A DNA stretch of 64,000 nt from a virus. Shown in pieces: positions 14,413 through 61,019 of the stretch. The notes beneath the pieces were generated by a model. That model saw only the letters and a program-made list of their open reading frames with translations. It ran no database searches and was not told the DNA's origin. A program made the position numbers and the translations under genes. Location: IMG/VR virus record IMGVR_UViG_3300045988_085724, positions 33,123 through 97,122 of that record; one strand, 5' to 3'. How positions within the stretch are numbered: position 1 is the stretch's first letter; each line of letters begins with the position of its first letter.

Positions 14413-15108
14413 TCACTCTTGAGTATTCACTTCATTAGAAATAGTCTGATAGCGTTGCTGCATAGGTATCTAGCTTTCTATGTACATCTATGCTGCCATC
14501 TTGATTATCTCTGGCATTATTACATCTGGAAAATCGGAATACTCTTCTTTTGGATTATCCAGACTTATTTTATTTGGATTTCTAAGATAACCTAATGTGT
14601 ATTTAGTTATCTTATATTTCTTATCAGTTAAGAGATCGCATCCATTTTGTGTCTTAATACGCAATGGCCTAGCTTTATAATGACGATAATGGAAGTCAGT
14701 AAGTGTATTATTTACACGATACATAAAGCTATCTGCAGTACATTCAAATACTGACGTATCGAGTTCATGTCCATCATCAATCGAATCTATAACTACATCC
14801 TCATTTAGTACAAACATCATATTTTCAGGATAAGTTACTGTATACTTATTATACGTAGCGCGACTTTCATCCACACTACTTAAATCTAAATTGCTTGATA
14901 CAAATAGGTTTATTAAATCTTTAGTACGTTTCTCATTCTACTCATATGATGTGAAATGTGGTGCATTGCCATTAAATCTAGTTTTACAGAATTTATAAAC
15001 AGCCTGATTTAACCAATACAAAGAATCGTCAGTAGCAGGCTTATTGAGAGTATCATCTATTTGGTTTATCTCTCGCTCAAATGCGGCTAATATCTATATA
15101 TTTGTCAT
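14413..15108 (-). CDS. head-tail connector-size protein (231 codons, TAG-recoded)
   Basis: ATG 15108 overlaps the upstream TGA (ATGA); the stop is TGA 14413-14415, with at least 4 in-frame TAG. It contains track ORF 14488..14874. Confidence 0.65.
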
Positions 15109-15854
15109 CATTCATCCTCCTATTCATCTTGTTGGTTATTCTATTGATTAGATTGTCTCTAAGGCTATTTAGAAGCTGTCTAAGGCTATGAAGCACCTCC
15201 GCGCTTATAGTTTATAAATAACTAAACAGCGCCGCTTACAAGCTCATTAAAACACTCGTACGGAAGTTCACAAGCAACGCCATCGCCAAGTATAGTAAAG
15301 TTTGCCGGTATCTTGATATACCTAATGTCTATAGCTATTATTTTAGTATATTCATCTGTAATTACTTCAAACGTAGTTCCTTTTCCAGCATTCTTCATAA
15401 CTAGTAATGGTCTACGAAGTATTTTACCTTTATTATAAGGATCTCGCATTATTTGGTTATATTGCTGTGAATTTATATAATCATTGCCAACCCAAACCTA
15501 AGTTTGCGAATCTTCTTCGTCATATGGTTTTGCATAAGAACCTTCTATTAAAGAAGTAGAATCAATATACATATTGAAATCATCCAACTTAAACAGATTA
15601 TATTCATCCGGGACACATTCTCCCCAAACAATAAGTGTTTTGAGATAATCATCAATACGATTAGAAGCATTTGAATTAGGCTAAACGCGATCTTTTGTTA
15701 TATATAACTCTTTAACGAACTGATTTTGATATTCATTTAAGAATGCATAAATATCTTCAGTATCAATCTTATCAACTGTTTTAGTTGACGGAAGTATAGT
15801 TTGAATTCTACGTTCAAATTCTATCCCCAATTGTCTTGTCTATTCTAATGTCAT
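15108..15854 (-). CDS. head-tail connector-size protein (248 codons) with a Q-rich tail made largely of TAG codons
   Basis: ATG 15854 overlaps the upstream TGA; the stop is TGA 15108-15110. With TAG=Q the C-terminus reads GASQPQTASKQPQRQSNQQNNQQDEQEDE. Confidence 0.65.
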
Positions 15855-16636
15855 GCCTCTAATGATTTAGTTTGTACTACTGTTGCTAATCTAGGATCTT
15901 GTACATTTCTACAAGCAAATATTACAGCAAGATTAATAAGCTCTTCACACACAGTATTTGATAATGGGAACTTCTCAGTGTTTGTTTTCTATTGTGCAAA
16001 ACTGGTCGGCATCATAATTCCACGTATGTGCAATGAGCTATTAGTTATTTTACCTTTACTACTATCTATAAGTATGTGTATACACGTACCTTCTTTTGAA
16101 GTAGTATTTTCACTATTTTCTTTTGAAGTAGTATTTTCGCGCTATACATACATTATAGGTTCTTTTATCCAAGGTTTATTGTGAACAGTTTCCTTAAATT
16201 TATCCGCTATTACACTTGTTAATAACTAAACCGTTTCTTCATATTTATTTGTATCTTTTGAGCCTTCCGCTTTGCCGGTTTCTTTCTGTTTATCTGTATA
16301 TGTTATCTTACCACCTAATATATAAACAGGCGGTGTAACACCGTTATCATATACATATACAAACTCATTGCTTGCAATACTTGGATCTGTAGTATTTGTA
16401 GATTGGGTGAGAGTCCATATATCTATTAATGGAGCTATATCTGACATAGCTTTAGAATCCATATCTAACGCTACTTTACGAGGATTATTTCCTGTTACTT
16501 TTTGAGCTATTAAAGCATACATTGCTTTATCTAAGATAACTGCAATCTCTTCTTTTGTAAGTGAAGGATATGACGAAGATACATCAGCCTTGTCATATTC
16601 AATCAAAAAATTTTTGTATATATCATTATACGTCAT
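15851..16636 (-). CDS. head-tail connector-size protein (261 codons, TAG-recoded)
   Basis: Runs from ATG 16636 to TGA 15851-15853, with in-frame TAG at 16226, 16142 and 15989. Confidence 0.65.
16091..16140. repeat. in-frame tandem duplication (27-nt period)
   Basis: TTCTTTTGAAGTAGTATTTTC occurs twice, encoding ENTTSKE..ENTTSKE on the minus strand. Confidence 0.8.
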
Positions 16637-20206: not shown

Positions 20207-20264
20207 AAATTATTATAATAATTTAATTTGTTATACTTATTTTATTCACTGTTCATTCAGTGTA

Positions 20265-21452
20265 TTAGTGTTTCCATTTACGAGCGTTTAGTGCAAACTA
20301 TGCTCTTTTTCTTGTCAAAGGATTCTTAGAATGACTAAGTTCCTCTGTAGTCTTACCTGTACGTTTTTTAGTAGCATTAAACTTACCACGATTAGCTGGA
20401 TTTATATATATTCCAGATTTACCGTGATCAAAAGAGCCATCTGGTTTCTGATCGGGATATAACATAGGTTTTAATGGTATGTTTATGTATGGATTTAACA
20501 CTGTACGTATGTCTTGTGACATTGGTACGTGTACAGTACTTATGTTATAATCAGGACTCATTGGTATTTGTATATTATTAGACGGTACCTATTGCACAAT
20601 ATTACCGTTCACAACACCTGTAGGCTGAAGGCCTTTCATAAACAAATCCTGCTCATATAATCTACGCTTACGTAGGCCAGATAATTTTTTATTATTCATA
20701 CCTACATTTATGGTATCTCTAATGGCAGACAAATCGTCATATTTCATTCCATTTGCAGCCCATTGTCGTATTGCGTTCAATGTTGGATTAAAACTAGATG
20801 GCTTTATATTATAGTAATATGAAGTAAGCGCATCGCGCTGATTTTGTGTCAATGCGTCCCACGCATCATTTCCTATAATATTTCCCAATCTTTTGTAGAA
20901 CGTTCCTACTGCATCACCTCCCCATCTACGATTCTACCCGGCAAAATGCGAACCTTCAGCACTAGCTATATATTTACGAATAGATCGTGATGGACCGCCT
21001 TTTCCAGTATAATATTCAGGCAAGTTTATCTTTACTGGATGGTCTTCTGCATGATCTAAATAATCTCTAGTTCTGTTATAATTCCAGTAGTTAGCTAACT
21101 AAGACATACTAGGTGTATATTCAGTACCAGCTTCGTTCCAGCTACCACCAACTATTCCATACGGATTATAATCACTTACTTTTCCGCTATATATAGACTA
21201 ATTAGAAAAAGTAGGATGATACATAGTTTTTGCATAATCGTCAAAATGTGCAAATGCAGGAGCATATAACATAGCATTGGCCATAAAAGGACGTCCTTCA
21301 TAAAACTCATTATAGTTATACGTAGGATCGTTCAACATCTCTGTATATACTTCATCTGTAGACAAGGGCTTCATTGGAGCTTGTGTCCATTCTTGTGCTT
21401 TCTTATCAGCTATCTAATCTAGCCAAGTATAAAAATCATTTTTCTTTTTCAT
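20265..21452 (-). CDS. protein with a lysozyme-like (muramidase) segment, TAG-recoded
   Basis: Runs from ATG 21452 to TAA 20265-20267 with 6 in-frame TAG. ..WDALTQNQRDALTSYYYNIKPSSF.. resembles the GH24 lysozyme helix motif. It joins track ORFs 20589..20888 and 20298..20561. Confidence 0.45.
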
Positions 21453-21483
21453 ATGCAGTTTTTCATATAATTATCTATACGGT

Positions 21484-22764
21484 TTACAACGGCTGCAAAC
21501 TTTTTGTCCTAGAGTCTACAAACTTTAATAACTAGTCATAATCTTCAGCTTGATCAAATGTAATTCCAGGTTGAACATACCCAGTTCTCTAAGTATTAAA
21601 ATCTCGCCTACGCCAAAAAGGACCGTTTTTCTCCCAGTAATTAAATTCAGATGCTGGTGCACTTGCATGTTTAGGACTTCCATTTTCTATCAATACGACT
21701 GGAGTTCCTTTATACATAGGAGCTTTTGTATCGTAGCTACCATGCATTCCTTTTGCAAATCTAGAAGCGTTTGTACCATCTATAATATAATCGGTATTTG
21801 TTGGATCATAAAAATACTCACCTTTTACAAAACCAACAGTGCCTTCATGATTAGTAGAAGGGCGATATCCTAGGTTAATCCCCGATTTACTCGTTCTTTC
21901 GGGCCTTCCAAACGAATTCCAATCTAAACCTAAGTCTTCTAAAGCCTATTCTAAATTTACTGGGTTCATGTTCGATAATTCGTCTCTGGTAAAATATTTC
22001 AATAACTGTGGATGATGCTCAATAGCTTTATCTAAAGCACCATGATACCAACCTGTTCTAGATCTTATAATTCCTGTATTAACAGCATCATCAATCATCG
22101 GAGAAGAACCTACCCTATAAAAATGTCCTGCTTGATTAGGCGGCAGTATAGTTCTATTAAAGATTGGATGTTTTGCTTGCCACTGTAAAGCAGAGTTTAA
22201 AGCGTCTCTTCCTGTATCATTGAGTATTCTATATACCTATGAATGTGGTACTTTAGATAGGACTCGCCCTGCTCCAGAAATAGGAACTTTCGATGCACCC
22301 AAATCAAACAACAAGTTAAGTTGTTTATCTCCGTAACTATCACCAAACCCAGGATTCTTTTCATCCCACATAGGTATTCCTGTGCGTAATGTACCAATCC
22401 AATTACTTGGTGTAAACGTTCTTAACACGGGCATTGCTCCAGGGATTTTACTAACCGGCTCCATTACTTTACCTACAGTATTTCCAAGTGCATATTGTAT
22501 ACCTTCTGTTAAAGCGTACGGATTAAATGCTGATTGATACGGATATTGTTTCTTGCCTATAACTTCTACATCAGGTGTAGTAACCTCAAGATTACGTGCA
22601 TCAATTGCGCTAGGGTCTACATTAAATACACTACCGTCGTCAGTGACCACTGTGTTCTTATCTCCAGTATCATACCTAGGCAAATCAATACCTCTTATAT
22701 CCCAGTAACGTTCACCATTCTTCCATCTATCATAGCGTGCTTGAAAATCTTTAATGTTTCTCAT
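21484..22764 (-). CDS. virion protein (426 codons, TAG-recoded)
   Basis: Runs from ATG 22764 to TAA 21484-21486. I translated it codon by codon from 22237 down. TAGs are at 22237, 21946, 21589 and 21532, with no other stops. Confidence 0.7.
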
Positions 22765-24192: not shown

Positions 24193-26679
24193 TTAACGCT
24201 CTCCTACCGTTTTATTCCGCAAAGCGGTCTTAGCTTTAAGTTGTTCTCTTTCCATAGCAGCTTTATCTTTTTGCGCTTGAAGTTGCGATTCATGTTTCAT
24301 CTTATCTTTCTCAAGCTGTATTTTAGCATCTTCGATCTCTTTCTTCTGTTTAGATTCGTAGCGCTTAGAGTACGCATCTTCACGTATCTTCATTTGTGCA
24401 GTAGCATCTTTAGCTATTTCCATAGGATCTGGTATACCATTCTGATTAGCATCTTTATCTTCAGTTCCGCGATATGCAGATATCTCAGCTACAGTAATCT
24501 TAGTGGCATTGTCTTGATCTATCTTATATCTATCAAGATCCATTTGAGCTTCTTGAAGCATGAGCTCTTGTTGTTTAGCTTCATTCTGCATCTGTTGAAG
24601 CTGTTGCTGTGCTTGTGCTTCAGCTTGTTGCTGTTGTTGTGCTTGTTCTTCTTGACGTTTTTGCATGGCTGCAAGTTTCTGTTTAATGATATTAAAGTTA
24701 TCATTAGTGAGTATTTCAGCTGCTTCAAGTAGACTAGCACCATTCTGCATAGCAGGTTGTATAAGCTGTTGGAGCTTCTGTATGTTCTCAAGATCTTTAG
24801 AAGTATCGCTTACGAATACATCCATATCTTCATAGTAGAATTTGTCAGCTATATCGAGAAATGCACGTTCGCCATTGTCAAATATGTACGATAATTTCTT
24901 TTTACCAGTCTATTGCCAAGCACCTTTAGCTGTATTCAAAAGCATATTTAATACATGACGTTTACATTGAGCATGCGCCCAGAATAAAGGCTCTGTGATA
25001 TGTGAAGATTGTACAACAGAACGCTCAACATTACCAACAAGTTCTGAAGAACTGATAGCACCTTGTCGTTGTTCTGTAATACCAGATATAGTTCCAGCAA
25101 GTTGTTCAATCTTATCCATCAACTGAATATATTCAGATATAACATTAGACATTGTAAGATCTAATGCTGTAATCTGATTAAATGAAGCAGGCTTTCCGCC
25201 TTCACGTCCAGGAACATTCCAGCCTTCTTCATATGGATTTATGAAGTTAACACCAACACTAGAAAGATAATGCATCCAACGTTCTGGTGTAATGTTCATA
25301 GACTTAGGTATCTGCGTAATATCCATGTTGATAACTTTACCTTTGTCACGAGCGATAGCCAATTCAAGTCTATACCATAATACAATATACATATACTGTA
25401 ATGGTTTAAGAATACTTACAAGTGATCTAGGTTTGCTATTAGTATTACTATATACACAACCACAATATGGCAGCTTTTGACTATTAGGATTATCAATACT
25501 TACATGTTGATACTCAATAGGCTATATTCCAAAATACAAATCATTTCCTGCACGATATCCTTCCCATACTTCTACAATCCAGTCTGGTTCCACAGATAAT
25601 TCGTTGCCTATCTTTTTATACGACTCATCGGCAATTTGTACCTGAGGAGTGCCTGTCTCATCCATGACTGTTACGTAAAATATCTTTTTAAAAGACTTCC
25701 AGCAACAATGCCACACATTTATACAGTATCTACTTTTCTGATCGAATTCTGGATTATCGTATATATGCAATTGTATTCCTCCGCCTGTATCTACAGGATC
25801 GCCTTCTCGCATATCACCCATTGGTTTTCCAGTGAGCATTTCATTGAGTTTATTTAGATCTTTTTCATCTAATTTATTATAATACCTATCATACACTTCT
25901 GCTACGGGCAGTCTCATCTTACGGCAACACCATGAACCATCTTCAATAAATTCTAGATCGGGACTTTTGTCATATGAAAAATATAACGGATTAACACGTT
26001 CCATATATGGCTCATCATTCTAAACACCTATATAGTATATCTCATTACCGGAGATAAGTGCATCTTTCCATCCTTTTATAAATTCATTGTCTAGATTAAG
26101 CTTTTCTCTTAAGTAGACTAGCGTATGATACGCTGTATTTTCAACAACATCTTTATACGTACTATCCATATATTTAGCAATTTGTTCAGGAGGCATTATT
26201 TCGCCATTTTGTAATTGCTGTTGAAATTGCTATTGTTGTTCGGGATCCATTTTGGCCATTATTGCGGACATCATATATTGGATCAGCATATCTTTTTCCT
26301 TATCCATTAAATCAGACGCTGCTTCCTAAGATGTACGCACTACTCTAAAGTTCATGGGTCTCTTTGTTTCCTCACCAATGAGTAGGTCAATCTTAGGGCG
26401 TATGATATTAAAATCCTAAGGTGTTGCTGGGAATCCATCGTCTACTTTAAATGGGTTTGTTATACGTTTAAAATCTTTTTCGTCGAAAATACTATTATAT
26501 AGATTATAATAAGTCTGCAGCTCCCCGAATTGTGTATTCTATCTTCCGCCGGATACAATATTACCTTCTCCGATAATATAATTCACACAACTGTGTTGCC
26601 AATCCTCATTCTTCTTTGATAGAGGTAACTTCTGTTGCGGAAATGTTGCATTGTATAAATTATCTTCTATTCTAACCAT
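24193..26679 (-). CDS. portal protein (828 codons, TAG-recoded)
   Basis: ATG 26679 lies 2 nt after the TerL TAA; the stop is TAA 24193-24195. Track ORFs 25522..26004, 24910..25392 and 24193..24825 share one frame, with at least 7 TAG. It has a Q/E-rich coiled-coil C-terminus. Size and position match a portal. Confidence 0.75.
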
Positions 26680-26681
26680 CG

Positions 26682-28739
26682 TTAAAAACTAAATATCGGT
26701 ATATCATCTTGTACGCTATTGTCCTAGAACCACTGTGTTCCGAACAATGGCAATTCAAAGAGTTCAACCTATTTATTCTATTCTTGTGATTTGCTAACCT
26801 TCACCTAGTACAACTCTTCTCGATATATCATAACCATGCATAATGCTATAACACGGTCTACGTTCTTAACGCCATCATTTTCTATAAGTTCTTCTATTAA
26901 AGGTTCGCTATATACTCTCTCTACGTTAGGATGCCCAGGTTCGTATTCTTCAAGTAACCATTCTAGAATAAGACCTTCTCCATATGCTCTAATCTATTTA
27001 GTCATATGACATCCTTTACGTCTTTGTACCTTACTGTCCTTAAAGACCTCAGAAATAATCTTATCGGGCTAATCTGCGAGTAAGTAATCACAGTGTTTGT
27101 TTGTGAAATAAGGATATATACCCTTACGTTCATTCTCAAATAATAATCTAGCATTATAGAACACTAATAGTTTTCTGACGTTCTCATAATACTCTTCTGC
27201 TGTATCAGGTCTACCTGAATATTCTGCTACTATTACATCATTCCAAGCTTCTCCAGCTTTTACACGTTTGAATATGAATACTGATCCTAATGAATTCGTA
27301 AATGAATCGTCGTGGTCGTAGGGATCACACCCTCCGATATACAATCCGAATGGCGGATCTTTTATAGGATATTCCCATATTACTATAGATCCATGTGGTT
27401 TATCTCCTTTCTTAAGTGGGTATTCAGTAATATCTCCAGACTTCTTTTCTGTAGCTATTATCTAACCGTTACCATCCCAATTGAGATCTACTATATGTTT
27501 CATATTACGTAACTTAGTGTTTGTACGTATACGTGTTAATTGATCCATTAGAAGTTTTCTTGGAAATATATTCTTACCTAATTCAAGTACAGCCTCTCTT
27601 GGCTTAATAGGACGTTCTGATATAAATCTATCTATGGACTATTGTGAAGCTCCTCCATCTTTAATCTTATTACGCTACTCTATTAGATTCTCAATAGCTT
27701 TCTCACGAAGACTATTTCCATCTTTATCCATATAGATATAATTTCCATCTTTGTCAAAAGATTCTAGATTACTCCATGAAGGAACAAAGAATCCACAATT
27801 AGTTTGCTCAGCATTATCATCCCATATGTTAGGGAATGCCAGTACATTATATGCTTCAGGTTTATAGAACAGTTCCTTTAGACCAGTAAATGAAGCGCCC
27901 TCTGTACCACCTGTACCATAAGCTATCATTAATCCAAAAGCTACACCGTCGTCAGTTTCTACAGACGGCTGTTCTATTCGCCACGCATCTAACAAGCCAG
28001 GGAACTTACCTCCCTCCTCCCATAGTACTAATTTACCACGAGTACCACGAATACGTTCTGGGTCGTTCTTAAGTGTTATTCCACTAATAGATGACATATA
28101 ACCTTGTTCAGTCTATTTACCGAATTCATCAGTTACCTTATAACCAGCTACGCGTTCCATACGAGTAGATACAAGTCTTTGTTTAGCCCATGCTGTATTC
28201 TTGTCTATAAAATCCATGATTTGCCAAGCTTTTGTTAGTAAACCGTCTCCTATTAAGAACTTTTGTTCTGATGCTACAGCAAAGTTTTTAGATCCAGGTA
28301 TCAATTCATAATTACGTACTAGCATTGATGCTCCTTTAAAGGAATACCCACGCTATCTGCTCTTAATCACCGACATGTGTTTACCTTGATCTTCCGCTTC
28401 TTCTATAGCGTTGTAGTAATAGTAATCATAGTCCCAAAATCTAGGAAAGTCTAATATACGTTCACGTCTTGTACGTACATTTCCATTTCTATCAGTATAC
28501 TTAACTTCTTCTAGTTTCATAATAGGACTATAGTTTAGATAGAAATAATGATATCCAGTAATATAATCACCATCTGGCGCTATATAACCATTTAAACATC
28601 TATCTGTTTCTTGCTCCCAATATGTATTATAATCAGTAGTCCCTCTGGGAGCTAAAGTATAGCATTTATGCTTCTTAAAAAACTCAGCAGCAGGACTGAA
28701 TTTTATAGAATTATAAATGCGTTTATTGAAATCTACCAT
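26682..28739 (-). CDS. terL: terminase large subunit (685 codons, TAG-recoded)
   Basis: Runs from ATG 28739 to TAA 26682-26684. Four track pieces share one frame. TAGs are at 28353, 28113, 27675, 27639, 27462, 27069 and 26724. I checked 27345-27675 and 26682-26760 codon by codon. ..RGTRGKLVLWEEGG.. (ATPase) and ..GGCDPYDHDDS.. (nuclease) are TerL-like. Confidence 0.8.
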
Positions 28740-28741
28740 GT

Positions 28742-29035
28742 TTAATTTTTATCTTCGTAAGTATTGAATAATTCTGAATCTCCAGTCTACGTATTTACGC
28801 CAATAGATGCTTTTAACGGATGAACATGTGTTACACTATCAGGAATCCCTGCAAATATATGCACCATTATGTTGTCGTCATTTTTAATACCGCCAGTACA
28901 CCACGTGTGTTCTTTAAGAAATTCATCAATATTACCATTATACTAGTCGTTGATGAAATCTGTCATCATCTATTTTTTTGAGTAATCGCTACTCGTGAGC
29001 TTCTCAAAAGCAATTTTTGTAAAATTCATCATCAT
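28742..29035 (-). CDS. small late protein (97 codons)
   Basis: Runs from ATGATGATG at 29035 to TAA 28742-28744 with 2 in-frame TAG. It is not in the ORF track. Confidence 0.5.
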
Positions 29036-29038
29036 TCG

Positions 29039-29557
29039 TTATCTAGGATTTTCGTAAAGACCTATTACACCTCCACCTTTAACTCTACCGGTTTCAGCCT
29101 GTTCAGCCTTTGCTTGTTTCATCGCCATATCAAGCGATTTAATTATTCCACTTATATCCTTGAGAAGCTTAGACACTTTAGTAGCACTATCTATATCTAA
29201 ATCTGTCTCAGAATAACTATTCATTACACTCATAATCGCCTCTGCTGCATGTTTCGACGAAGTAAGCAAACGAGTCATCGGAGTTTCTTGAAACTCGTTA
29301 AACCGTTTTGCCAACTCCATCATCTATGCATCAGGTTTAAAATTCTCATCCTTAAAGACATCCTTAGCTACTCTCCACGTACGCTCCTTTTCTGGATATG
29401 CCTCATATGGAGTATTCCATTTATATCGCCATACTATAAATTCGATTTTCTTCAACGCTTCTTGTTTATCTTTAGCGTTATTATAGTAATCTTTAAATGG
29501 AGGTATAGCTAATTCATCAGTCTTTAGTATTATCTTATTTCCCTATATATCAAACAT
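29039..29557 (-). CDS. small late protein (172 codons), possible small-terminase position
   Basis: Runs from ATG 29557 to TAA 29039-29041, with TAG at 29543 and 29324. Translated codon by codon. Track ORF 29039..29323 is its C-terminal half. Confidence 0.6.
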
Positions 29558-29985
29558 TATGTTAGTTTAGTTAATGCGCCATGCATAATAAATGTAACTT
29601 GGCTATTATTTGCAGATAACTTACGCACAATCGCTGTAATAATGTACATGTTATTATTTGCAGTATTATAATAATTAGTAGTATAATATAACGTCATACT
29701 GTTGTCTGCACTCGTCTCACGCTATAAATTAAATATAAGCGTTGGGAAATCATTTACTCCGACTGGTCCAAATGCATCTTGTACACCATTCCAAATAATA
29801 TATTGAGGTGGGTATCCATTTCCAAGAGCATCTCCTCTCTATGTAAATATTAGTTTTTGCTAGTCTTCTGGTATACTGTACGAGTACGTATCCGTTGTTT
29901 TACTACCTAAAGTAATCGATATAGGATGAGCAAATTTTGTCCAGTCTTTTAGGCGAACAAGTCCAGATCTGTCTAATGTTTCCAT
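29557..29985 (-). CDS. small late protein (142 codons)
   Basis: Runs from ATG 29985 to TAA 29557-29559 (TAATG overlap with the next gene), with 3 in-frame TAG. Confidence 0.55.
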
Positions 29986-29991
29986 AGGTTA

Positions 29992-51983: not shown

Positions 51984-52494
51984 AAGCTCGATTCATAAAT
52001 TGAATTCAGATCATAGAACCTTTGAGTCACATGATTACGTGGAGGGGGAAGTTAACGCTTGGGATCTGGCATTATGCTTCAGTTGCGGAACACCACGAGA
52101 CATGAATTGACATGTCATACAGAGCCTAGAGCCAGTTATGAATTCAGATGCCGAACTTACGGTAGTTTAAATATAAGTCACATGATCAAAAGAATTGAAT
52201 CTTAGCGAGTCATTGGAGCCTCGACAAGGTTAGCATTGGTTAACTACGTCGACTGAGATGTAAATCAAAAATGTTGAAAGCGACATGCAAGAGTCTTAGA
52301 ACCAGTCATATCACCGCTTGTATTAAGCCAAATAAAGCCGTTTTAAAGCGTTATTAATCGATTGTGAAGTAGCTAATCACATGAGACCAAATAACGTCTT
52401 AAAACGGCTTAAAACAGGCTTAAATCAAATGTTCTATCTGATCAATAGAACATTTACAAAGAATAATAGCATGTATGAGGTAATTTACGAAGAC

Positions 52495-52539
52495 GAGGGT
52501 TCGAATCCCTCATGGTCCACGTCTACATAGACATTTTTT
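52495..52539 (+). other. tRNA 3'-half-like module + terminator
   Basis: GAGGG-TTCGAAT-CCCTC-ATGGTCC-A, then GTCT-ACAT-AGAC-ATTTTTT. No matching 5' acceptor strand was found within about 130 nt. Confidence 0.45.
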
Positions 52540-52559
52540 CATAATAAGGAAAACTATCG

Positions 52560-52592
52560 CCAATGTGGTTCGTGAGAATAGCATTGGTTTTT
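52560..52592 (+). terminator. hairpin with conserved loop GGTTCGTGAGAATA + T-run (copy 1)
   Basis: CCAATG-TGGTTCGTGAGAATAG-CATTGG-TTTTT. Confidence 0.5.
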
Positions 52593-52735
52593 AACAAGGG
52601 CCATACTGGATTTGATTCGTAAAGGAAGTAAATACGTTAAGTGCTACTATATAAATTCAACTGGCAACTATAATGTTGTAGATTACACACATGTAGCATG
52701 AGTGTAATCTGAGTGTTTCCTACTAAAGTGGAGGA

Positions 52736-52793
52736 AGATGTAATACGATAGGCGTACATTGTGGTTCGAGTCCACTACATCTACGAAATTTAT
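52736..52793 (+). other. mini tRNA-like element (acceptor + T arm + one short hairpin)
   Basis: AGATGTA..TACG-ATAGG-CGTA..GTGG-TTCGAGT-CCAC-TACATCT-A. Confidence 0.4.
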
Positions 52794-52829
52794 TTGTCTA
52801 TTGTTTATGAAAAGTTATTAGAGTAGTAG

Positions 52830-52858
52830 TGCACGGTTCGTGAGAATAGTGCATTTTT
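52830..52858 (+). terminator. hairpin with conserved loop GGTTCGTGAGAATA + T-run (copy 2)
   Basis: TGCAC-GGTTCGTGAGAATA-GTGCA-TTTTT. The stem differs from copy 1 while the loop is identical. Confidence 0.5.
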
Positions 52859-52867
52859 AATTTGATT

Positions 52868-53759: not shown

Positions 53760-53868
53760 GCAGCACCCGTGTCTCCAAAGAGAGTAGTGTTTAATCACAA
53801 CACGGGACATTATGAGCACCGTCTCTTACGTCAGTGACAGACTAATAACCGGTTAAAATTTGTTGATT

Positions 53869-54423
53869 ATGAAGAATCCTAAGATTACCCAAGAGGAGAT
53901 TCGTCTAATCAAGGACGCAAAGGCTGGAAATATACTAGCCTTTAATAAACTTTTTTATCGCTATAAAGGCTTCGTAGACAATGTGCTGTATCAGTACATT
54001 AAAGACTACGATGAAGCGAAGGACATTACTAATATAGTATTCCTTAAAGTTTATGAAAAACTCTCGACTTTCGTAGATTATGACTCTTTTGGAGGATGGC
54101 TACGAATTATTGCTAATAGAACGGCTATAGATTACCTGCGTAAAATCGGGGACAAAAACAGAATGCTTGGAGATAACGACAACAAAGTGTCACTGGAACA
54201 AATAGATTCTACGGAGCACGATGCGGTCAATCGAATTACGTATGAACAACTATTGAAAGAGTTTGACCGACTCAATCCAGTTCACAAGCAAATATGCCTG
54301 TTATTCTATAAAGATAATCTAACGGTTGATCAAATTAGCAAAACTTTAAACATTTCACCTGGTACGATTAAGTCTATACTTTCTCGTACGAGAACAAAAA
54401 TCATTAAACGCTTTAAACAGTAA
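53869..54423 (+). CDS. ECF-type sigma-70 family RNA polymerase sigma factor
   Basis: Region 2 reads ..FNKLFYRYKGFVDNVLYQYI..AKDITNIVFLKVY..GGWLRIIANRTAIDYLRK. The region 4.2 helix-turn-helix reads LTVDQISKTLNISPGTIKSILSRTRTKI. Confidence 0.8.
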   Translation: MKNPKITQEEIRLIKDAKAGNILAFNKLFYRYKGFVDNVLYQYIKDYDEAKDITNIVFLKVYEKLSTFVDYDSFGGWLRIIANRTAIDYLRKIGDKNRMLGDNDNKVSLEQIDSTEHDAVNRITYEQLLKEFDRLNPVHKQICLLFYKDNLTVDQISKTLNISPGTIKSILSRTRTKIIKRFKQ

Positions 54424-54911: not shown

Positions 54912-56279
54912 ATGGCAAACAAAAATAAAAAGAGCGTTATTCCTACCGCTCCTAGAACTAAGAAGGAAGAGAGCGTAAACAGCGGTGAGAAGACAAACAC
55001 CACCGTAGAAGTAATTGATGCAAAATCGCTGAAGAACTTGACTCAGCCTAAACAGCAAGCAGGTCTTGATGCAAACCATCAAGTAGACGTGCTGATGGGC
55101 CTTAAGGCCTATTTCCACGACGATCCGTCTGCAGAGGCTAAGTTCGGCAAAGACCCTGTTGATAAGATCAACCGTCTGACAGCGATTGGTTTCGCCACGG
55201 CATTCGTACAAGAGGCCTTTAACGGTGATAACAACTGGGCAGCTACTATGCGTACAGCACAGTTAGAGGAACTTAAGGCAGTAGCCCCGATGATCGGTTT
55301 TACGATCGATACGAAACTGCTTCCAAAGCCTGACGAGGCGGGTAACGTAGTTGTCCCTGCAAAAGCTGTAAAGGTAACTAAGGAGACCAAGAAAAAGCTA
55401 GAAGCAGAGAAGAAGATTATCAACTCTAAGCCGATCATCGATCCTACTAAGATCGAAAACGAAGATCAGCTGAAACAGAGTTTGACCTTCATGTTGTCCG
55501 ATCCGTCTGTACGTCGTCCCTATGACAGAATCGTACGCGCAACTGAGTTTCTTCGCTCCTATCAGCTTTTACAGGCCAATGGTAACGAGGATACCACTAC
55601 TTCCACTAACAGTAAGTCCATATCAGATCTTCTTGAGGAAGTACGTGTGCTAGTCGGAGAAATCCCCTTCTCTACTGTAGGCCTCAGTCACTTCATTTAC
55701 CTCAAAACTTTAGAGTCAAAGAGCCCAATATTCGCATTCTGTCTGTTACGCAATGCGTCTAAGAATAAGGAAACTGATGTTGTTCCTGTAAACGACAATG
55801 TAATTGCAGCAATGGTTCGTACTCTGGTAAACTGGACAAACGAGCCTAAGCTTATTGAAGATACTAAGAATCTTGAGCGTGCTAAAACAGAACTTGCTGC
55901 TGGTAACGTAAATCAAGACTACGTTGATGCTGTACAGCACAATGTAGATTATCGCAAAGAACTGTTTGAAGCAGTTACAAACTGTCCGACAGACTTTGCA
56001 GACAACTTGCTTGACAACCTTAATAGCGAGGATAAAGAGCTGCGTAAAGCTGCATGTCTGGCAGAAAGTGGCATACTTAAGTCATACTATCCTTCATTGG
56101 AGAGTGTTGACGCAGCTGGAGAACAGAAGGATCAGCTCATGCATGACATACAGCAGCGTGCGGGTATCATCACCAACCTGTTCCGCGATCCTCTCTCACA
56201 GGATATCCGATACAGTGAGACAAACCTCTCTTATGAGGCACCTAAAACTGAAGAAAAGAAGACTGAAGAAAAAAACTGA
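54912..56279 (+). CDS. abundant-looking middle protein (455 aa), function unknown
   Basis: Intact ORF with GC-richer codon usage, a basic N-terminus and an acidic/K-rich C-terminus. Confidence 0.7.
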   Translation: MANKNKKSVIPTAPRTKKEESVNSGEKTNTTVEVIDAKSLKNLTQPKQQAGLDANHQVDVLMGLKAYFHDDPSAEAKFGKDPVDKINRLTAIGFATAFVQEAFNGDNNWAATMRTAQLEELKAVAPMIGFTIDTKLLPKPDEAGNVVVPAKAVKVTKETKKKLEAEKKIINSKPIIDPTKIENEDQLKQSLTFMLSDPSVRRPYDRIVRATEFLRSYQLLQANGNEDTTTSTNSKSISDLLEEVRVLVGEIPFSTVGLSHFIYLKTLESKSPIFAFCLLRNASKNKETDVVPVNDNVIAAMVRTLVNWTNEPKLIEDTKNLERAKTELAAGNVNQDYVDAVQHNVDYRKELFEAVTNCPTDFADNLLDNLNSEDKELRKAACLAESGILKSYYPSLESVDAAGEQKDQLMHDIQQRAGIITNLFRDPLSQDIRYSETNLSYEAPKTEEKKTEEKN

Positions 56280-56374: not shown

Positions 56375-56809
56375 ATGCGAAAGTTAACAACAATCCTATG
56401 CAGCATTGCCTTTGCATTATCAGGTATTTGCCTGGCAAAGATAACAACTGCTAATTCTTCAACATCATCTCAAGTTATGGCAGCTACTATGCCTGATATT
56501 AACTTGAATGATATAAAGTTGCCTAAAGACCTTACATTAGATCTACAGCAACAGGATAGTATTCGTTCACCCGGCAAACCGGATACTGTCTACTTAGAAA
56601 AGCCGGAAGTAAAAACCAAAAAATCTAAGAAGGTTCGCGCACCTCGAAGAGTAGCAACGAAGACAGTCCACGTCCCAGTTGTCTATCTAATAACGCGTAT
56701 GGATAACAAGGAAGACTCCATTGGTCATGATAGCCTACCGATCTACAAAGTAGAAAAAGTAGGAAAAATTGATCTAAAAAAGTTCAATTCCTCCATAGAT
56801 ATTAATTAG
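56375..56809 (+). CDS. secreted/anchored protein (144 aa); TAG-terminated
   Basis: Signal-like MRKLTTILCSIAFALSGICLA; the stop is TAG 56807-56809. Confidence 0.55.
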   Translation: MRKLTTILCSIAFALSGICLAKITTANSSTSSQVMAATMPDINLNDIKLPKDLTLDLQQQDSIRSPGKPDTVYLEKPEVKTKKSKKVRAPRRVATKTVHVPVVYLITRMDNKEDSIGHDSLPIYKVEKVGKIDLKKFNSSIDIN

Positions 56810-58982
56810 TATTTTAGTTTTGGATTGTGCAGTTATGCGCTACATGATCCAAAACCTATGGGTAAGTACTTATAGTAGGTCTCATTAGCCTATGTACGAA
56901 ATTTATACTTGATCCGAGAATATGTTAGCCGTCTCAAACGGTGAGATCACTCAAAAGGTAGGATGAAATGCATTGTATACTGAAAATATATAATGTAAGT
57001 AGGATTAGCGCTGTATCAGATCCTAGAAACTATATAACTGGACTTGTGAGAACCGATTGGAGACAAGCTGGATGAAGAAGTATGGTTTTGAAACGCATAA
57101 GTCTCAAAAAGAGCATAATGAACCGTATCGGAATTATATTCAATGATACTAAGAATATACGAACGACACACGAGATGAAACATATCTATTAATATCGAAA
57201 ACTTATATTGTGGGAAACTATATACATGGTATGGTATAGTTTGCAATGATATCAGTATAAGACGAGAGTAGATGACCAACCGTAGATATGAGTATCACAA
57301 AAATAGCTGTAGCATAGTGTTCCTTGGTTCCAACCCAAGTATGAAGGTGTGAAGAAAATACACAGATTGTTCTATATCATAAGGATAATACTTATGAAGT
57401 GTATCGTAAATATGCTGTCTATGTAAATCCCTGCTGTTAGATTCAGCACATCTCCGTTGAAGGGGAGCCAGTGATGGGGTAAAACGACTGATACAAGATG
57501 AAGTGTGACCGACAGGCTTTTGTAGTTTATCGGTATATAAAAGAGAAACTACCAGGAGGGTAGGGCAGACCCTTAGTTAGGTTATGATGATTGTATATCA
57601 TAATCTATGCGCGATACGAGGCCGCGAACAAAGTCTGATATGAATACACTAAGTTCAGTAAGCAGAATGATGTGTATTGGACATAGTATAAAAAACTATG
57701 CCGATTCCGGTGATTACGTTATAATCGAAAAACTCTTGATCAGAGAACAGATCATTTACGTAAGTCGATTCGACACTGTACACACCAGTACTGCATGAGA
57801 TCGCTTTCGTTTCAAGACAGATGATAGTTAGAAGGTTCAACTATGTATACATATATTACAGTCCCTGTGGGATAGAATCCGTTATACTGTAACTGCGTAT
57901 GCATTTTGAAATAAGGTACTTCTTACAAAGATAAGTCAGCGATAAAATTAAGAATTAACATGTTTAACAAAAATTAGGTGTCCCCAGATAGCGAAAAACC
58001 TACGTTGTAAGTAGGGAGTAGTGAAGTCTGAAGCCTGAGTACCAACCGTTATATGTAACCAGAACTAAAGTATGGACAGCAAATCCATGCGTAAACTCTA
58101 AAGGTAGGCATAATACATGGAAATGATGGGCAGCTTTAAGGAGCTATGAGACGCAGTGCAATAGCGTATGCAGGTGATGTATCGAAAACATCTCTTACTA
58201 TCCACTGTCTCTGGATGTGTAAGAAACTCTTAAAGTGGGTGACAAGTGAAAGTGTATGAGTTGAAATCTCAATATTCGTGTACTATAAATAAATGAGGTA
58301 GAAACACCAAGAACAGAAAGTCCGTAGGATCGCAGATACCCCCTGAAGGCATAGATCGTTCGATAACGAAACGCACTCCTTGCGTAAACAGCTACACACG
58401 CACGTAGTAAATAGGAAAACCGTCAACAGGACATCCTCAGACGTAAAATTCAGGATGCGCGAGCAAGCGGCTACAGCTTGTATGAATAGATTTGTAGTTA
58501 AAATAGGGAAACTGTCAAAGATATTCAAAGACATTGTGGGTTAAGATACATATTGCGCATTAGTCCAATTGGAAATTTTGCCGATTGTCTAACAATCAGT
58601 ATCAAGAAGCGTACGGAAGATCTTCGTACAATATTTATCTATAAATAAATATGACATCATACATAAACGTAGATGTCTAAAACAAGATTGATTTCTTCAT
58701 AGCAGCATTCAAAGCTTTACCAAAATACAGACGATGGGCTTAGCTAATCATACCGTTTGATTCCCGTTGCGCAATTGAGCTTCATTTTAAGGAATATAAA
58801 ACACAACTATATCTGTATAAAGCGTGGTTCCCATTAGCACACCAACTGTATGCAAGCAATATATTTAACATAAATACACCTAAGTGACTCTCCGAAGCAG
58901 TGTATTTTCTTTTTTTAATTAACATTATTAACAAAAAATATCGTTGGTTTAATCAAAAACGATATCAAAAAGGATATTTTTT
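56810..58982 (+). other. 2.2-kb ORF-free, GC-enriched, purine-rich region (candidate large structured RNA)
   Basis: All six frames are dense in all three stop codons. It has many local hairpins (e.g. CTCC-GTTGAAG-GGGAG and GTACGGAAG-AT-CTTCGTAC), and its GC is visibly above the flanks. Confidence 0.45.
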
Positions 58983-59591
58983 ATGGCAACAACAACAATT
59001 AACGTAAATGTACAAAACGCCCTGTCGGGCAATCGTAACCCTATCTCATTGATGGGTGCTAACCTTGGTAAACAATTCTTCACAACAGAGGTCCGCGACT
59101 GTTGGCCCAACTTTGAGAAGGAAAAGAACGCTATCCAGATGAACGAGCAGAAGACGCTGATCACTAATCGTTCACCTCGTCGCTATCGTATTAACGCTAA
59201 AGATATCTATGGTATCATAATCGATACCGATATCAATAACAATCCGGTGATCAAGATCAATCCCCATAAGGACGGTCTTGCTGATGCCATCATCGCAATC
59301 TCTTCAGACATGAAGGATTACGGTGTAGTAACCGAAGAGGCTGTCAAGGAGGCATTGAAAAATGCCAATGATCCTAACTCGACGGCGACACACGCATTCA
59401 AGGATCCGCAGAAGCTGATCCAGTTTATGAATGCGCTTAATCAGAGTGAGTACGAAAGTATTCAGACTCTGATCGATGCTCTCTGCAAAATGCAACAGAG
59501 TATCAAGTCAGCTATGGCTGATAACACAAAGAAAGTAAACGACTATATGGAACAACTCAATAGTCGTGTGGACATTAATGTTCATGACTAA
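58983..59591 (+). CDS. hypothetical protein (202 aa)
   Basis: Intact ORF with GC-richer codon usage. Confidence 0.65.
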   Translation: MATTTINVNVQNALSGNRNPISLMGANLGKQFFTTEVRDCWPNFEKEKNAIQMNEQKTLITNRSPRRYRINAKDIYGIIIDTDINNNPVIKINPHKDGLADAIIAISSDMKDYGVVTEEAVKEALKNANDPNSTATHAFKDPQKLIQFMNALNQSEYESIQTLIDALCKMQQSIKSAMADNTKKVNDYMEQLNSRVDINVHD

Positions 59592-60473: not shown

Positions 60474-61019
60474 ATGAATAAGACATCAATGAAATTGAAT
60501 TCAAGTAACATTATTAACATTCGTAAAGATCTTTGTGAGAAGATAACGAAGTATTGGCGAACTATTCGTAACGAAAACGTTATGTCAACTAAAGCGATTA
60601 AGGCAGGACTCGGTTCGGGTTGTGACCTTAAATCTTTGCATAATGAGATTACTCAGATGGCAGAAAAGCGTATCATAGTTAAAGGTATGCTAATGTATCT
60701 TAATATGGGCCTAAAGTTTGACTTGGCCGCATTTAAGAAGAGCAATAACTATGCTATTTTTGCAGCATGCGAGGCAAAAGAAGCAATTGCTCAACTCAAA
60801 ATGATTCCTACTATCAACCCTGTAGAAAAATCGCAAAAAGGGCTAAAGGGTACTGGAAAGAAGGAAACATTCACTAGTGCAAAAATTGCACAATTGATAA
60901 AGAATCTTCAGTTGAAGGCGAATAAATATGACTCTCAATTGGAGAAATTTAATACAGAGACTACAATCGATATTCCCGAAAGCTTATCTAATATGTTTAA
61001 GGACGATATCGCTGTATAA
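60474..61019 (+). CDS. hypothetical protein (181 aa)
   Basis: Intact ORF. Confidence 0.6.
   Translation: MNKTSMKLNSSNIINIRKDLCEKITKYWRTIRNENVMSTKAIKAGLGSGCDLKSLHNEITQMAEKRIIVKGMLMYLNMGLKFDLAAFKKSNNYAIFAACEAKEAIAQLKMIPTINPVEKSQKGLKGTGKKETFTSAKIAQLIKNLQLKANKYDSQLEKFNTETTIDIPESLSNMFKDDIAV

What the first reader, a model, noticed from the sequence alone, without database searches (positions are those of the whole stretch)
56810..58982. 2.2-kb ORF-free, GC-enriched, purine-rich region: candidate giant structured RNA
About 2.17 kb lies between genes 56375-56809 and 58983-59591. All three stop codons are frequent in all six frames, so no recoding scheme rescues an ORF. GC content is clearly above that of the flanking AT-rich genome, which is typical of structured RNA in AT-rich genomes. 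The plus strand is G/A-rich and hairpins are abundant.

A phage of this type normally packs genes tightly, so 3% of the window being silent is unexpected. Large ornate RNAs (the GOLLD/ROOL class) are known to ride on phages next to tRNA genes. I cannot verify similarity by eye, and I did not find group II intron domain V or a hammerhead core here.
Basis: partly seen in the sequence, partly recalled or inferred. Interest (0 to 1): 0.7.

Follow-up and report, generated by a model that had tools for sequence, protein, structure and literature searches.

The report
Giant structured RNA of crAss-like phages
The 2.2-kb "empty" stretch is a real, strongly conserved, highly folded non-coding RNA gene of about 2 kb, found at the same place in all five subfamilies of a major group of gut crAss-like phages (Suoliviridae); it matches no catalogued RNA family, I found no description of it in the papers I could search, and it is about 2.5 times the size of the largest known "ornate" phage RNAs.

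Summary
The window is a crAss-like phage (Suoliviridae, Oafivirinae; 97.8% identical to cr131_1).

**Not coding.** Region 56810-58982 has no ORF under any stop-codon recoding. Its substitutions show no codon periodicity, while all flanking genes do.

**Conserved.** It is better conserved at DNA level than most neighbouring genes.

**Structured.**
- Consensus folding of 20 non-redundant homologs gives -305 kcal/mol, against -92 to -119 for column shuffles.
- 148 of 286 pairs show compensatory double changes, against 21-31 in shuffles.
- With 44 sequences the count is 171 of 286.

**Distribution.** A gap of 1.85-2.5 kb sits at the same syntenic place in all five Suoliviridae subfamilies (sigma factor, ~460-570-aa protein, small ORF, gap, replication module). 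Four subfamilies share collinear conserved blocks with this RNA. These include a 5' module with an invariant kink-turn-like hairpin.

**Not a known family.** Rfam 15 finds nothing here or in ten relatives, so it is not GOLLD, ROOL or an intron.

The "giant structured RNA" idea is supported. The GC-enrichment argument is not (0.367 against 0.359).

**Open points.** Function, transcript ends and global fold are unknown. My best guess is a processed, trans-acting scaffold RNA.

The parts
56817..58840 (+). Extent of the conserved structured RNA (about 2.0 kb). Transcript ends are not known. It contains 57 consensus helices with 286 pairs.
   Evidence: RNAalifold on 20 non-redundant homologs gives -304.7 kcal/mol against -92 to -119 for column shuffles. 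148 of 286 pairs are compensatory against 21-31. With 44 sequences the count is 171 of 286. There is no codon periodicity.
56817..56855 (+). First hairpin (P0). It has a long covarying stem and a loop GUUAUGCGCUAC with UGCGC invariant in several genera. It starts 8 nt after the stop codon of the upstream ORF.
   Evidence: Stem variants UUUUGGAUUGUGCAG/CUACAUGAUCCAAAA, UAUAUACUUAUUUACAG/CUGUAGAUAAGUAUAUG and CUCCUAUAUAUUAUAAGC/GCUUAGUAUGCAGGAG. Single-sequence fold of 56810-56900 has z = -3.1.
56866..57077 (+). 5' module, the most widely conserved part. It is detectable in four of the five subfamilies (Oafivirinae, Loutivirinae, Bearivirinae, Boorivirinae) and in one Uncouvirinae genome. It includes hairpin 56875-56893 (loop CUCAUUA), GAGAAUAUGU, hairpin 56928-56942 and CAAAAGGUAGGAUG.
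   Evidence: Alignments A3 and A4. nhmmer cross-subfamily hits with E from 7e-24 to 2.5e-12. Pair counts: 89% paired against 71% shuffled, 0 of 500 shuffles reach it.
57043..57067 (+). Kink-turn-like hairpin: C-stem 57043-46 with 57064-67, bulge UGA 57047-49, tandem G.A/A.G 57050-51 with 57062-63, NC-stem 57052-54 with 57059-61, loop 57055-58.
   Evidence: Bulge, G.A/A.G positions and NC C-G pairs are invariant in 23 of 23 sequences from two subfamilies. The C-stem covaries, with AU, CG, GC, GU and UA at one position. The three-dimensional kink itself was not testable.
57312..57416 (+). Three adjacent covarying hairpins (57312-57350, 57377-57397, 57398-57416).
   Evidence: 12, 7 and 7 pairs, of which 9, 6 and 3 have compensatory changes.
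57430..57640 (+). Multi-hairpin domain, including 57522-57552, 57556-57574 and 57610-57626.
   Evidence: Independent tool alignment and fold A2: 9 of 18 pairs with double changes. Global analysis.
57844..57903 (+). Long hairpin (17 pairs).
   Evidence: 13 of 17 pairs are compensatory. Tool test on A6: 93.1% paired against 73.2% shuffled; covariation score 0.599 against 0.233 (0 of 500 shuffles) and 0.014-0.173 for slid partners.
57853..58292 (+). Central block shared collinearly with the RNAs of other subfamilies. It contains invariant GAGUGCCAACCG (58037-58048) and GUGGGUGA (58235-58242).
   Evidence: nhmmer with the Loutivirinae profile hits window 57853-58292. The same block hits in Bearivirinae, Boorivirinae and Uncouvirinae gaps with E from 1.7e-21 to 8.5e-7. 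Conserved runs are listed.
58631..58807 (+). 3' hairpins (58631-58652, 58684-58697, 58746-58762, 58766-58807).
   Evidence: 5 of 6, 4 of 4, 7 of 7 and 5 of 6 pairs are compensatory.
58872..58918 (+). Weak AU-rich hairpin followed by UUUUCUUUUUUU. This is a possible but unproven 3' end or terminator.
   Evidence: Fold gives -5.8 kcal/mol with z = -0.24, not significant. The outer pair covaries with cr130 (ACAC/GUGU against GCAC/GUGC) in A1.
58938..58965 (+). Operator-like hairpin in the leader of the downstream gene (AUAUCGUU-loop-AACGAUAU). It is followed by AAGGA (58970-58974) and the AUG at 58983.
   Evidence: The stem covaries between subfamilies (UCCGU.GG/CCACGGA in Bearivirinae and Boorivirinae). 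The loop motif AAUCAA is conserved. The element is unique in the window.
56375..56809 (+). Upstream ORF (144 aa, signal-peptide-like N terminus). In cr7-type relatives its 3' end overlaps the first RNA hairpin.
58983..59591 (+). Downstream ORF (202 aa) of unknown function, present after the gap in all subfamilies.
   Evidence: The AF2 model has low confidence and no fold match.
53860..54423 (+). Sigma-70/ECF-like factor gene, a conserved syntenic marker three genes upstream of the RNA.
   Evidence: Pfam Sigma70_r2 and r4. PHROG 1740. Synteny.
54912..56279 (+). 455-aa protein family that co-occurs with the RNA. It is alpha-helical with no known fold.
   Evidence: tblastn finds it in the same 12 phage records as the RNA. 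AF2 pLDDT is 77. Best Foldseek PDB E-value is 0.29.

Best explanation
**What it is (shown).** This is a gene for a very large (about 2 kb), highly structured non-coding RNA read from the + strand. It is a hallmark of the crAss-like phage family Suoliviridae. It always sits between a block holding a sigma-like factor and a ~460-570-aa protein, and the DNA-replication module.

**How it most likely works (inferred).**
- It is transcribed together with the co-directional upstream genes. There is no room for an intergenic promoter, because the folded region begins at or within the end of the upstream ORF.
- It is then probably cut out of the precursor.
- It acts in trans during infection as a stable architectural RNA. 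That could be the scaffold of a phage-specific ribonucleoprotein, or a self-assembling RNA particle like ROOL and GOLLD, possibly with catalytic or sequestering activity.
- The invariant kink-turn-like hairpin and the roughly 200 invariant unpaired or junction nucleotides would be the protein-binding or tertiary-contact sites.

**Confidence split.** That it is a conserved structured ncRNA gene: about 0.95. That the strand is +: about 0.85-0.9. The trans-acting scaffold mechanism: about 0.4.
For: **Non-coding**
- No ORF under any recoding in 20 homologs or in four further subfamily representatives.
- Substitutions are evenly spread over codon positions (p = 0.51 and 0.66). Flanking genes give p <= 5e-11.

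**Selection**
- 45-52% of the RNA still aligns at about 70% identity with genera where most flanking ORFs cannot be aligned at DNA level.
- The neighbouring 455-aa protein is only 28-40% identical between these genera.

**Structure**
- Consensus energy, compensatory pairs and slid-partner controls.
- Tool-based tests with 0 of 500 shuffles reaching the observed values.
- An independent second lineage gives -528 against -314 to -335 kcal/mol, and 136 against 35-45 compensatory pairs.

**Family-wide distribution**
- Syntenic gaps of 1849-2477 nt in Loutivirinae, Bearivirinae, Boorivirinae and Uncouvirinae, with collinear profile hits.
- At least 110 of 120 metagenome hits are true homologs, mostly on 95-105-kb contigs.

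**Strand**
- + strand folds are more stable (-304.7 against -258.5; -528 against -493).
- G.U outnumbers A.C in helices predicted on both strands (154 against 88 cells; 51 against 31 pairs; p = 0.035).
- The kink-turn reading exists only on +.
- All neighbouring genes are on +.

**Co-transcription**
- P0 begins 8 nt after the upstream stop codon, or overlaps it in the cr7 type.
- No conserved TAnnTTTG box is present.
- A covarying RNA hairpin plus an SD-like sequence links the 3' side to the downstream gene.
Against: - There are no expression data of any kind. The 5' and 3' ends are unknown.
- The candidate terminator is weak.
- The predicted long-range helices that would tie the RNA into one global fold are invariant or fail to covary, even with 44 sequences. 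A chain of independent domains is therefore not excluded.
- No RNA-binding or RNA-processing protein could be recognised among the neighbours.
- Embedding in an operon fits a cis-acting role just as well.
- The strand test with symmetric selection is only moderately significant (p = 0.035).
Confidence: 0.55

Rival explanations
1. Cis-acting operon element. The folded region is never released. It works within the polycistronic mRNA as a processing, stability, transcription-timing or translation-control module for the downstream replication genes.
For: - There is no intergenic promoter space. The structure starts at or inside the upstream ORF end.
- A conserved covarying hairpin plus an SD-like sequence sits directly before the downstream start codon.
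- All genes are co-directional.
- There is no strong terminator.
Against: - Two kilobases, 57 conserved helices and about 500 columns at 90% or more identity far exceed any known leader or riboregulator.
- The length is held at 1.85-2.5 kb across five subfamilies.
- The RNA is better conserved than the genes it would regulate.
Confidence: 0.2
2. Replication-origin transcript. The RNA, or the act of transcribing it, primes or activates phage DNA replication, like ColE1 RNA II or phage origin transcripts. The AT-rich 3' part would serve as the unwinding or transition zone.
For: - It always lies at the head of the replication module, with DNA polymerase, helicase and Sak4 3-6 kb downstream.
- The 3' 400 nt are AT-rich, with GC 0.31.
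Against: - The cumulative GC-skew extreme is at about 38 kb, where the strand switches, not here.
- No iteron-like repeats were noted.
- The selection pattern (compensatory pairs, G.U bias, kink-turn) is that of a folded RNA along the whole 2 kb. That is much more than a primer needs.
Confidence: 0.1
3. Anti-defence or host-takeover decoy. This would be an abundant RNA that sequesters a host factor such as a ribosomal protein, RNA polymerase, a nuclease or an immune sensor.
For: - It sits among early/middle-type small genes of unknown function and next to a phage sigma factor.
- There is a precedent of proposed protein sequestration by OLE, and of ribosome binding by GOLLD (PMC12286853).
Against: - There is no sequence or structure resemblance to rRNA, tRNA, 6S or any Rfam family.
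- No defence-related neighbours were found.
- Such strict family-wide conservation is unusual for arms-race genes.
Confidence: 0.1
4. Not a functional RNA: decayed genes, a recoded or intron-split protein gene, an assembly artefact, or a DNA-level element.
For: - Some database records annotate small ORFs inside it. Examples are a 160-168-aa minus-strand ORF in cr7_1 and Bohxovirus, and many tiny ORFs in Dulem virus 42.
- Delta-group crAss phages are known for stop-codon recoding and introns (PMC7886860).
Against: - No ORF is conserved in position or frame under any code.
- There is no codon periodicity.
- No intron or other Rfam model matches.
- The same element is present in more than 100 independent assemblies.
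- Covariation is far above the controls.
Confidence: 0.02

Closest known systems
GOLLD RNA (Rfam RF01998)
   Same: Both are very large, elaborately folded non-coding RNAs carried by phages, of unknown function, embedded among phage genes. tRNA genes are often not far away. Both have a universally conserved part and a more variable part (PMC12286853).
   Different: - There is no match to the GOLLD covariance model, even at E <= 10.
- This RNA is about 2 kb, while GOLLD has 'many members exceeding 800 nt'.
- It is restricted to one family of crAss-like phages at a fixed syntenic site.
- No tRNA island is adjacent in this window.
- Oligomerisation into a cage is unknown here.
ROOL RNA (Rfam RF03087)
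   Same: Both are phage or prophage-borne ornate RNAs with no identified protein partner and no known function. ROOL forms RNA-only nanocages held by kissing loops and A-minor contacts. The RNA here also has many invariant loops and junctions that could serve such contacts.
   Different: - There is no model match.
- This RNA is three to four times longer.
- Quaternary structure was not tested.
OLE, HEARO, raiA and other large bacterial ncRNAs
   Same: They share the discovery signature: a long ORF-free stretch with extensive covariation.
   Different: - There are no Rfam matches.
- The host range differs: gut Bacteroidota-type phages rather than extremophilic Firmicutes or IS605 elements.
- No associated TnpB/IscB or Oap proteins are present.
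Kink-turn (k-turn) RNA motif
   Same: The hairpin at 57043-67 has the defining sequence pattern: C-stem, 3-nt bulge, tandem G.A/A.G, NC-stem. The key positions are invariant and the C-stem covaries.
   Different: This is only a local building block. It does not identify the RNA's family or function. The kinked geometry and any L7Ae-type partner are untested.
Ribosomal RNA / RNase P-type large structured RNAs
   Same: The size class is comparable (16S rRNA is about 1.5 kb). The architecture is also similar: many short conserved helices separated by invariant junctions and variable-length expansion hairpins.
   Different: There is no sequence or model similarity. It is phage-specific. No catalytic or ribosomal role has been shown.

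Membership tests
GOLLD (RF01998) | Match to the family covariance model (conserved 3' domain) | tested here: not met
   cmscan of the window at gathering score, of the region at E <= 10 with permissive filters, and of ten homologous loci at gathering score. No hit in any.
ROOL (RF03087) | Match to the family covariance model | tested here: not met
   Same searches. No hit.
GOLLD/ROOL-like kind (large ornate phage RNA) | Long ORF-free phage region with extensive, covariation-supported secondary structure | tested here: met
GOLLD/ROOL-like kind (large ornate phage RNA) | Homo-oligomeric RNA-only assembly (nanocage) | not testable with these tools
   This needs cryo-EM, native gels or mass photometry of the transcript.
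GOLLD/ROOL-like kind (large ornate phage RNA) | Location near tRNA islands | tested here: inconclusive
   Nearest tRNAs in the window are 9-11 kb upstream. Single tRNAs lie 1.3-3.5 kb downstream in several relatives. There is no tRNA array.
Group II intron | Domain V/catalytic core model match; usually an intron-encoded reverse transcriptase | tested here: not met
   No Rfam intron hit. No ORF inside. No RT domain in neighbours.
Group I intron | Core P3-P8 model match; interruption of a host gene, often with a homing endonuclease | tested here: not met
   No Rfam hit. The flanking ORFs are complete, separate genes in all relatives.
rRNA, tmRNA, RNase P, 6S, OLE, HEARO and all other Rfam 15 families | Covariance-model match | tested here: not met
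   Only four chance-level hits with E from 1.7 to 9.1 to eukaryotic and archaeal snoRNA and miRNA models.
Kink-turn motif | C-stem, 3-nt bulge, tandem sheared G.A/A.G, NC-stem | tested here: met
   Sequence signature: bulge and G.A/A.G positions invariant in 23 of 23; C-stem covaries; NC C-G pairs invariant.
Kink-turn motif | Kinked three-dimensional geometry, or L7Ae-family protein binding | not testable with these tools
   No L7Ae-like neighbour was recognised. Structure probing is needed.
Protein-coding gene with stop-codon reassignment (known in Delta-group crAss phages) | Long ORF appears when TAG or TGA is read as sense; codon-periodic substitutions | tested here: not met
   (no conserved ORF under recoding). 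(no periodicity; flanking genes are strongly periodic).

The most novel reading that the evidence does not exclude
This is the largest structured non-ribosomal RNA yet seen in any phage. It would be a single ~2-kb RNA machine, either a ribozyme, a self-assembling RNA particle or the core of a new ribonucleoprotein. On this reading it is indispensable to Suoliviridae, a major group of crAss-like phages of the human gut, and works by a principle not represented among known phage RNAs.
Probability: 0.3. Interest if true: 0.95.

Novelty: new variant of a known kind. Interest (0 to 1): 0.85.

Why it matters
- **Size and rarity.** Large ornate RNAs are rare, and each new class (OLE, GOLLD, ROOL) has revealed unexpected RNA architecture. 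This one is about 2.5 times larger than GOLLD.
- **Abundance.** It is fixed in an entire family of crAss-like phages. Yutin et al. 2021 call that Delta group the largest in the gut crAss-virome, with 13-18% of crAss reads. The RNA is therefore present in a large share of human and animal gut samples.
- **Annotation.** It is unannotated, or mis-annotated as small ORFs, in public records.
- **New research handles.**
  - A conserved genetic marker for Suoliviridae.
  - An obvious target for cryo-EM.
  - A new angle on the poorly understood infection cycle of phages that have resisted cultivation.
- **Gene callers.** Gaps in phage genomes can be the best-conserved genes in the neighbourhood.

Tried and rejected
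1. **Known RNA families.** Rfam at gathering score and at E <= 10 found nothing.
2. **Hidden coding.** Six-frame ORFs under four recodings, ORF conservation across 24 genomes and substitution periodicity were all negative.
3. **GC enrichment as a signal.** It is not present.
4. **Reverse-transcriptase/template-RNA idea.** This was prompted by the UG/Abi paper mentioning Crassvirales. That paper concerns UG27 in other phages, and the 455-aa neighbour has no RT or any other domain.
5. **Function from neighbours.**
   - Pfam, PHROGs, NCBIfam, PADLOC and a PDB sequence search gave only the sigma factor.
   - The AF2 model of the 455-aa protein (pLDDT 77) has no Foldseek match (best E 0.29).
   - The AF2 model of the 202-aa protein has low confidence (pLDDT 64) and no match.
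6. **Promoter and terminator.**
   - The sigma-70 scan is at chance level (11 sites against 12.8 expected).
   - No Bacteroidetes TAnnTTTG box is conserved.
   - The 3' hairpin plus U-run is not significant.
7. **Long-range helices closing the RNA into one fold.** They are predicted but invariant or non-covarying, even with 44 sequences. This is unresolved.
8. **Replication origin by GC skew.** There is no signal at the locus.
9. **RNAalifold on default MAFFT alignments spanning two subfamilies.** It under-calls pairs because helix registers shift. Within-subfamily L-INS-i alignments were used instead.
10. **Whole-RNA shuffle z-score script.** It timed out. It was replaced by two half-length folds with z = -2.4 and -1.8.
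11. **Literature.** Seven full-text searches found no description of a crAss-phage ncRNA. [quoted passage not shown]
Full report
**Source and observation**

The window is a crAss-like phage. Region 56810-58982 is 97.8% identical to cr131_1 (NC_055902; Crassvirales, Suoliviridae, Oafivirinae).

The interval lies exactly between ORFs 56375-56809 and 58983-59591. It is the longest stretch of the window without an ORF of at least 100 aa. Each of the six frames carries 9-26 copies of each stop codon. The longest stop-free run is 93 codons, and reading TAG, TGA or TAA as sense gives nothing conserved. The longest ORF (87 aa) is what shuffled sequence gives (79 +/- 20).

Two descriptive claims fail. 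GC is 0.367 against 0.359 for the window, the 70th percentile. The purine excess (0.558) equals that of the other + strand-coded parts (0.55).

**Not coding, yet conserved**

The region is alignable in 12 phage records. Identity is 75% over 98% of its length in cr130_1, and about 69% over 42-52% in four other genera.

The flanking 455-aa protein is only 28-40% identical in those same genomes. Most flanking ORFs can no longer be aligned at DNA level, while 45-52% of the 'gap' still can.

Among 20 homologs dereplicated at 96%, the longest stop-free runs (82-198 codons) fall at inconsistent positions and frames.

Substitutions are spread evenly over the three codon positions (99/98/113, p = 0.51; 156/146/162, p = 0.66; no 300-nt window below p = 0.2). 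Every flanking gene tested is strongly periodic (p from 5e-11 to 2.5e-29).

**Structure**

| Test | Observed | Control |
|---|---|---|
| RNAalifold, 20 sequences, + strand | -304.7 kcal/mol | -92 to -119 (six conservation-matched column shuffles) |
| RNAalifold, 20 sequences, - strand | -258.5 kcal/mol | n/a |
| Pairs with compensatory double changes (of 286) | 148 | 21-31 (shuffles); 58-81 (3' partner slid) |
| Cells forming canonical pairs | 90% | 33-44% (slid) |
| Compensatory pairs with 24 more metagenomic sequences (44 total) | 171 of 286, 89% canonical | n/a |
| Independent tool alignment and fold (A2) | 9 of 18 pairs compensatory | n/a |
| Independent tool alignment and fold (A6) | 11 of 14 pairs compensatory | n/a |
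| Domain 57838-57975, cells paired | 93.1% | 73.2% (0 of 500 shuffles) |
| Domain 57838-57975, covariation score | 0.599 | 0.233 shuffled; 0.014-0.173 slid |
| Single-sequence stability | z = -2.4 and -1.8 | n/a |

The anatomy is 57 mostly local helices from 56817 to about 58840. They are separated by invariant junctions and variable-length hairpins. About 505 columns are at least 90% conserved and 214 are invariant.

**Strand**

Four lines point to the + strand:
- The + strand fold is more stable in both lineages.
- In helices predicted on both strands, G.U outnumbers A.C (154 against 88 cells; 51 against 31 pairs; p = 0.035).
- The kink-turn reading exists only on the + strand.
- All neighbouring genes are on the + strand.

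I put + at about 85-90%.

**Distribution**

A motif scan of viral contigs plus an nhmmer profile found 34 full-length homologs. It also found a second class that matched only a ~170-nt 5' module. Those loci also carry a 2.0-2.1-kb ORF-free gap at the same place and belong to Loutivirinae.

Their gaps align with each other and are themselves strongly structured: -528 against -314 to -335 kcal/mol, and 136 against 35-45 compensatory pairs. They share two collinear blocks with the window's RNA, the 5' module and window 57853-58292.

Using the best-conserved neighbour (orf181) as a probe, the same gene order was found in Bearivirinae, Boorivirinae and Uncouvirinae. The order is sigma factor, ~120 aa, 460-570 aa, ~130-155 aa, gap, ~185 aa, ~170-190 aa, orf181, then DNA polymerase, helicase and Sak4. 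The gaps are 2080, 2477, 1920 and 1849 nt and are unannotated. Three of the four hit the Loutivirinae RNA profile in both blocks, with E from 7e-24 to 8.5e-7. All four are ORF-free under every code. The cr118_1 gap is too diverged to call.

In species-representative genomes, the true hits are only phage-sized or fragment contigs binned into MAGs. Two are in Segatella copri bins. There, 110 of 120 loci are true homologs, mostly on 95-105-kb gut contigs. One is OBYQ01000140, a Delta-group genome cited by Yutin et al..

**Notable elements**

1. **5' module (56866-57077).** It has invariant CAUU, GAGAAUAUGU, CAAAAGGUAGGAUG and UGAGAACCGNNUGGNGA.
2. **Hairpin 57043-57067.** It reads C-stem / UGA bulge / G.A-A.G / ACC-loop-GGN. 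All key positions are invariant in 23 of 23 sequences and the C-stem covaries. This is the sequence signature of a kink-turn (the motif definition is from established knowledge, and the geometry is untested).
3. **First hairpin P0 (56817-56855).** It starts 8 nt after the upstream stop codon. In cr7-type genomes its 5' arm lies inside the upstream ORF. Loutivirinae have a different conserved upstream element. No Bacteroidetes-type -7 box is conserved.
4. **Operator-like hairpin (58938-58965).** It lies just before the downstream gene. Its stem covaries between subfamilies and it has a conserved AAUCAA loop. AAGGA and the AUG follow it.
5. **Possible 3' end (58872-58918).** This hairpin plus U-run is not statistically supported.

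**Mechanism**

*Shown:* a + strand, RNA-level selected fold of about 2 kb, with size and position fixed across a phage family.

*Inferred:* co-transcription with the upstream genes, followed by processing, because there is no room for a promoter and no strong terminators.

*Best guess, about 0.4:* a stable trans-acting architectural RNA, either an RNP scaffold or a self-assembling particle in the manner of ROOL and GOLLD. Those are phage-borne RNAs of unknown function that form RNA-only nanocages (PMC12286853).

*Rivals:*
- A cis-acting operon element (about 0.2).
- A replication-origin or primer transcript (about 0.1). The position at the head of the replication module supports it, but there is no GC-skew signal.
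- A host-factor decoy (about 0.1).
- Junk, coding sequence or an artefact (about 0.02).

The global fold is unresolved. The predicted long-range helices are invariant or fail to covary.

**Comparison and novelty**

No Rfam 15 family matches in the window, in the region at E <= 10, or in ten relatives. It is therefore not GOLLD, ROOL, OLE, HEARO, an intron, rRNA or tmRNA. It shares only the kind: a large ornate phage RNA.

At about 2 kb it is roughly 2.5 times the size of GOLLD ('many members exceeding 800 nucleotides').

Seven full-text searches found no description of it. [quoted passage not shown] Papers outside the searchable library cannot be excluded.

**Verdict**

This is a new RNA family of a known, rare kind. 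Interest is high (0.85).

Noticed in passing
window 51984-52861 (ARAGORN call 52430-52792, + strand): This is a second ORF-poor stretch of about 880 nt. ARAGORN calls a permuted tmRNA with tag GNYNVVDYTHVA. RefSeq records of cr131_1, cr130_1, cr124_1 and cr7_1 annotate the homologous place as 'transfer-messenger RNA, SsrA', and it is about 70% conserved. No Rfam tmRNA model reaches threshold there.
   Followed up: partly
window 45353-45459 and 47758-47827 (+ strand): Two RAGATH-1 hammerhead ribozymes (67.7 and 66.9 bits). Each lies about 110-140 nt upstream of a tRNA gene: tRNA-Met at 45599-45673 and tRNA-Gln at 47938-48009.
   Followed up: no
window 53860-54423 (+ strand): A phage-encoded sigma-70/ECF-like factor (Sigma70_r2 and r4; PHROG 1740). 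It is conserved three genes upstream of the RNA in all Suoliviridae subfamilies examined. It could direct transcription of this gene block.
   Followed up: partly
L003 4269-4751 (-), L005 4287-4793 (-), L006 4032-6040; L001 3566-4135: Public records annotate probable false ORFs inside the RNA. cr7_1 and Bohxovirus carry a 160-168-aa minus-strand ORF. Dulem virus 42 carries more than ten tiny ORFs. In cr131_1 the upstream ORF is annotated 135 nt into the region homologous to the RNA's first hairpins, whereas in the window it stops at 56809.
   Followed up: partly
window 26005-27674, 14875-16225, 20207-21549, 28740-29991, 5220-6446, 1197-2418: These are further stretches of 1.2-1.7 kb without an ORF of at least 100 aa on either strand. 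They may hold small genes, introns or other RNAs. No Rfam family was found in them at gathering score.
   Followed up: no
L133, L153 (genome contigs): Complete ~101-kb phage contigs carrying the RNA are binned into two Segatella copri MAGs. Others are in Bacteroidaceae, 'Bacilli' and Intestinibacter bins. This is at best a weak hint at the host, and shows phage genomes contaminating MAGs.
   Followed up: no
window 60474-61019 (+ strand): orf181 is by far the best-conserved protein of the neighbourhood. It is 60-82% identical across Oafivirinae genera and detectable in 33 phage records of all five subfamilies. It has no family or domain match in any library.
   Followed up: partly
window 56375-56809 (+ strand): The ORF just upstream of the RNA starts with a signal-peptide or lipoprotein-like segment (MRKLTTILCSIAFALSGICLA). 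Its only weak hit is to the periplasmic chaperone Spy (E 0.004, far below the cut-off).
   Followed up: no
window 57957-57964 and 56839-56842: Invariant self-complementary sequences sit in conserved, apparently unpaired or uncertainly paired places: AACAUGUU, and GCGC in the P0 loop. They could serve intermolecular (kissing) contacts. This is pure speculation from sequence.
   Followed up: no
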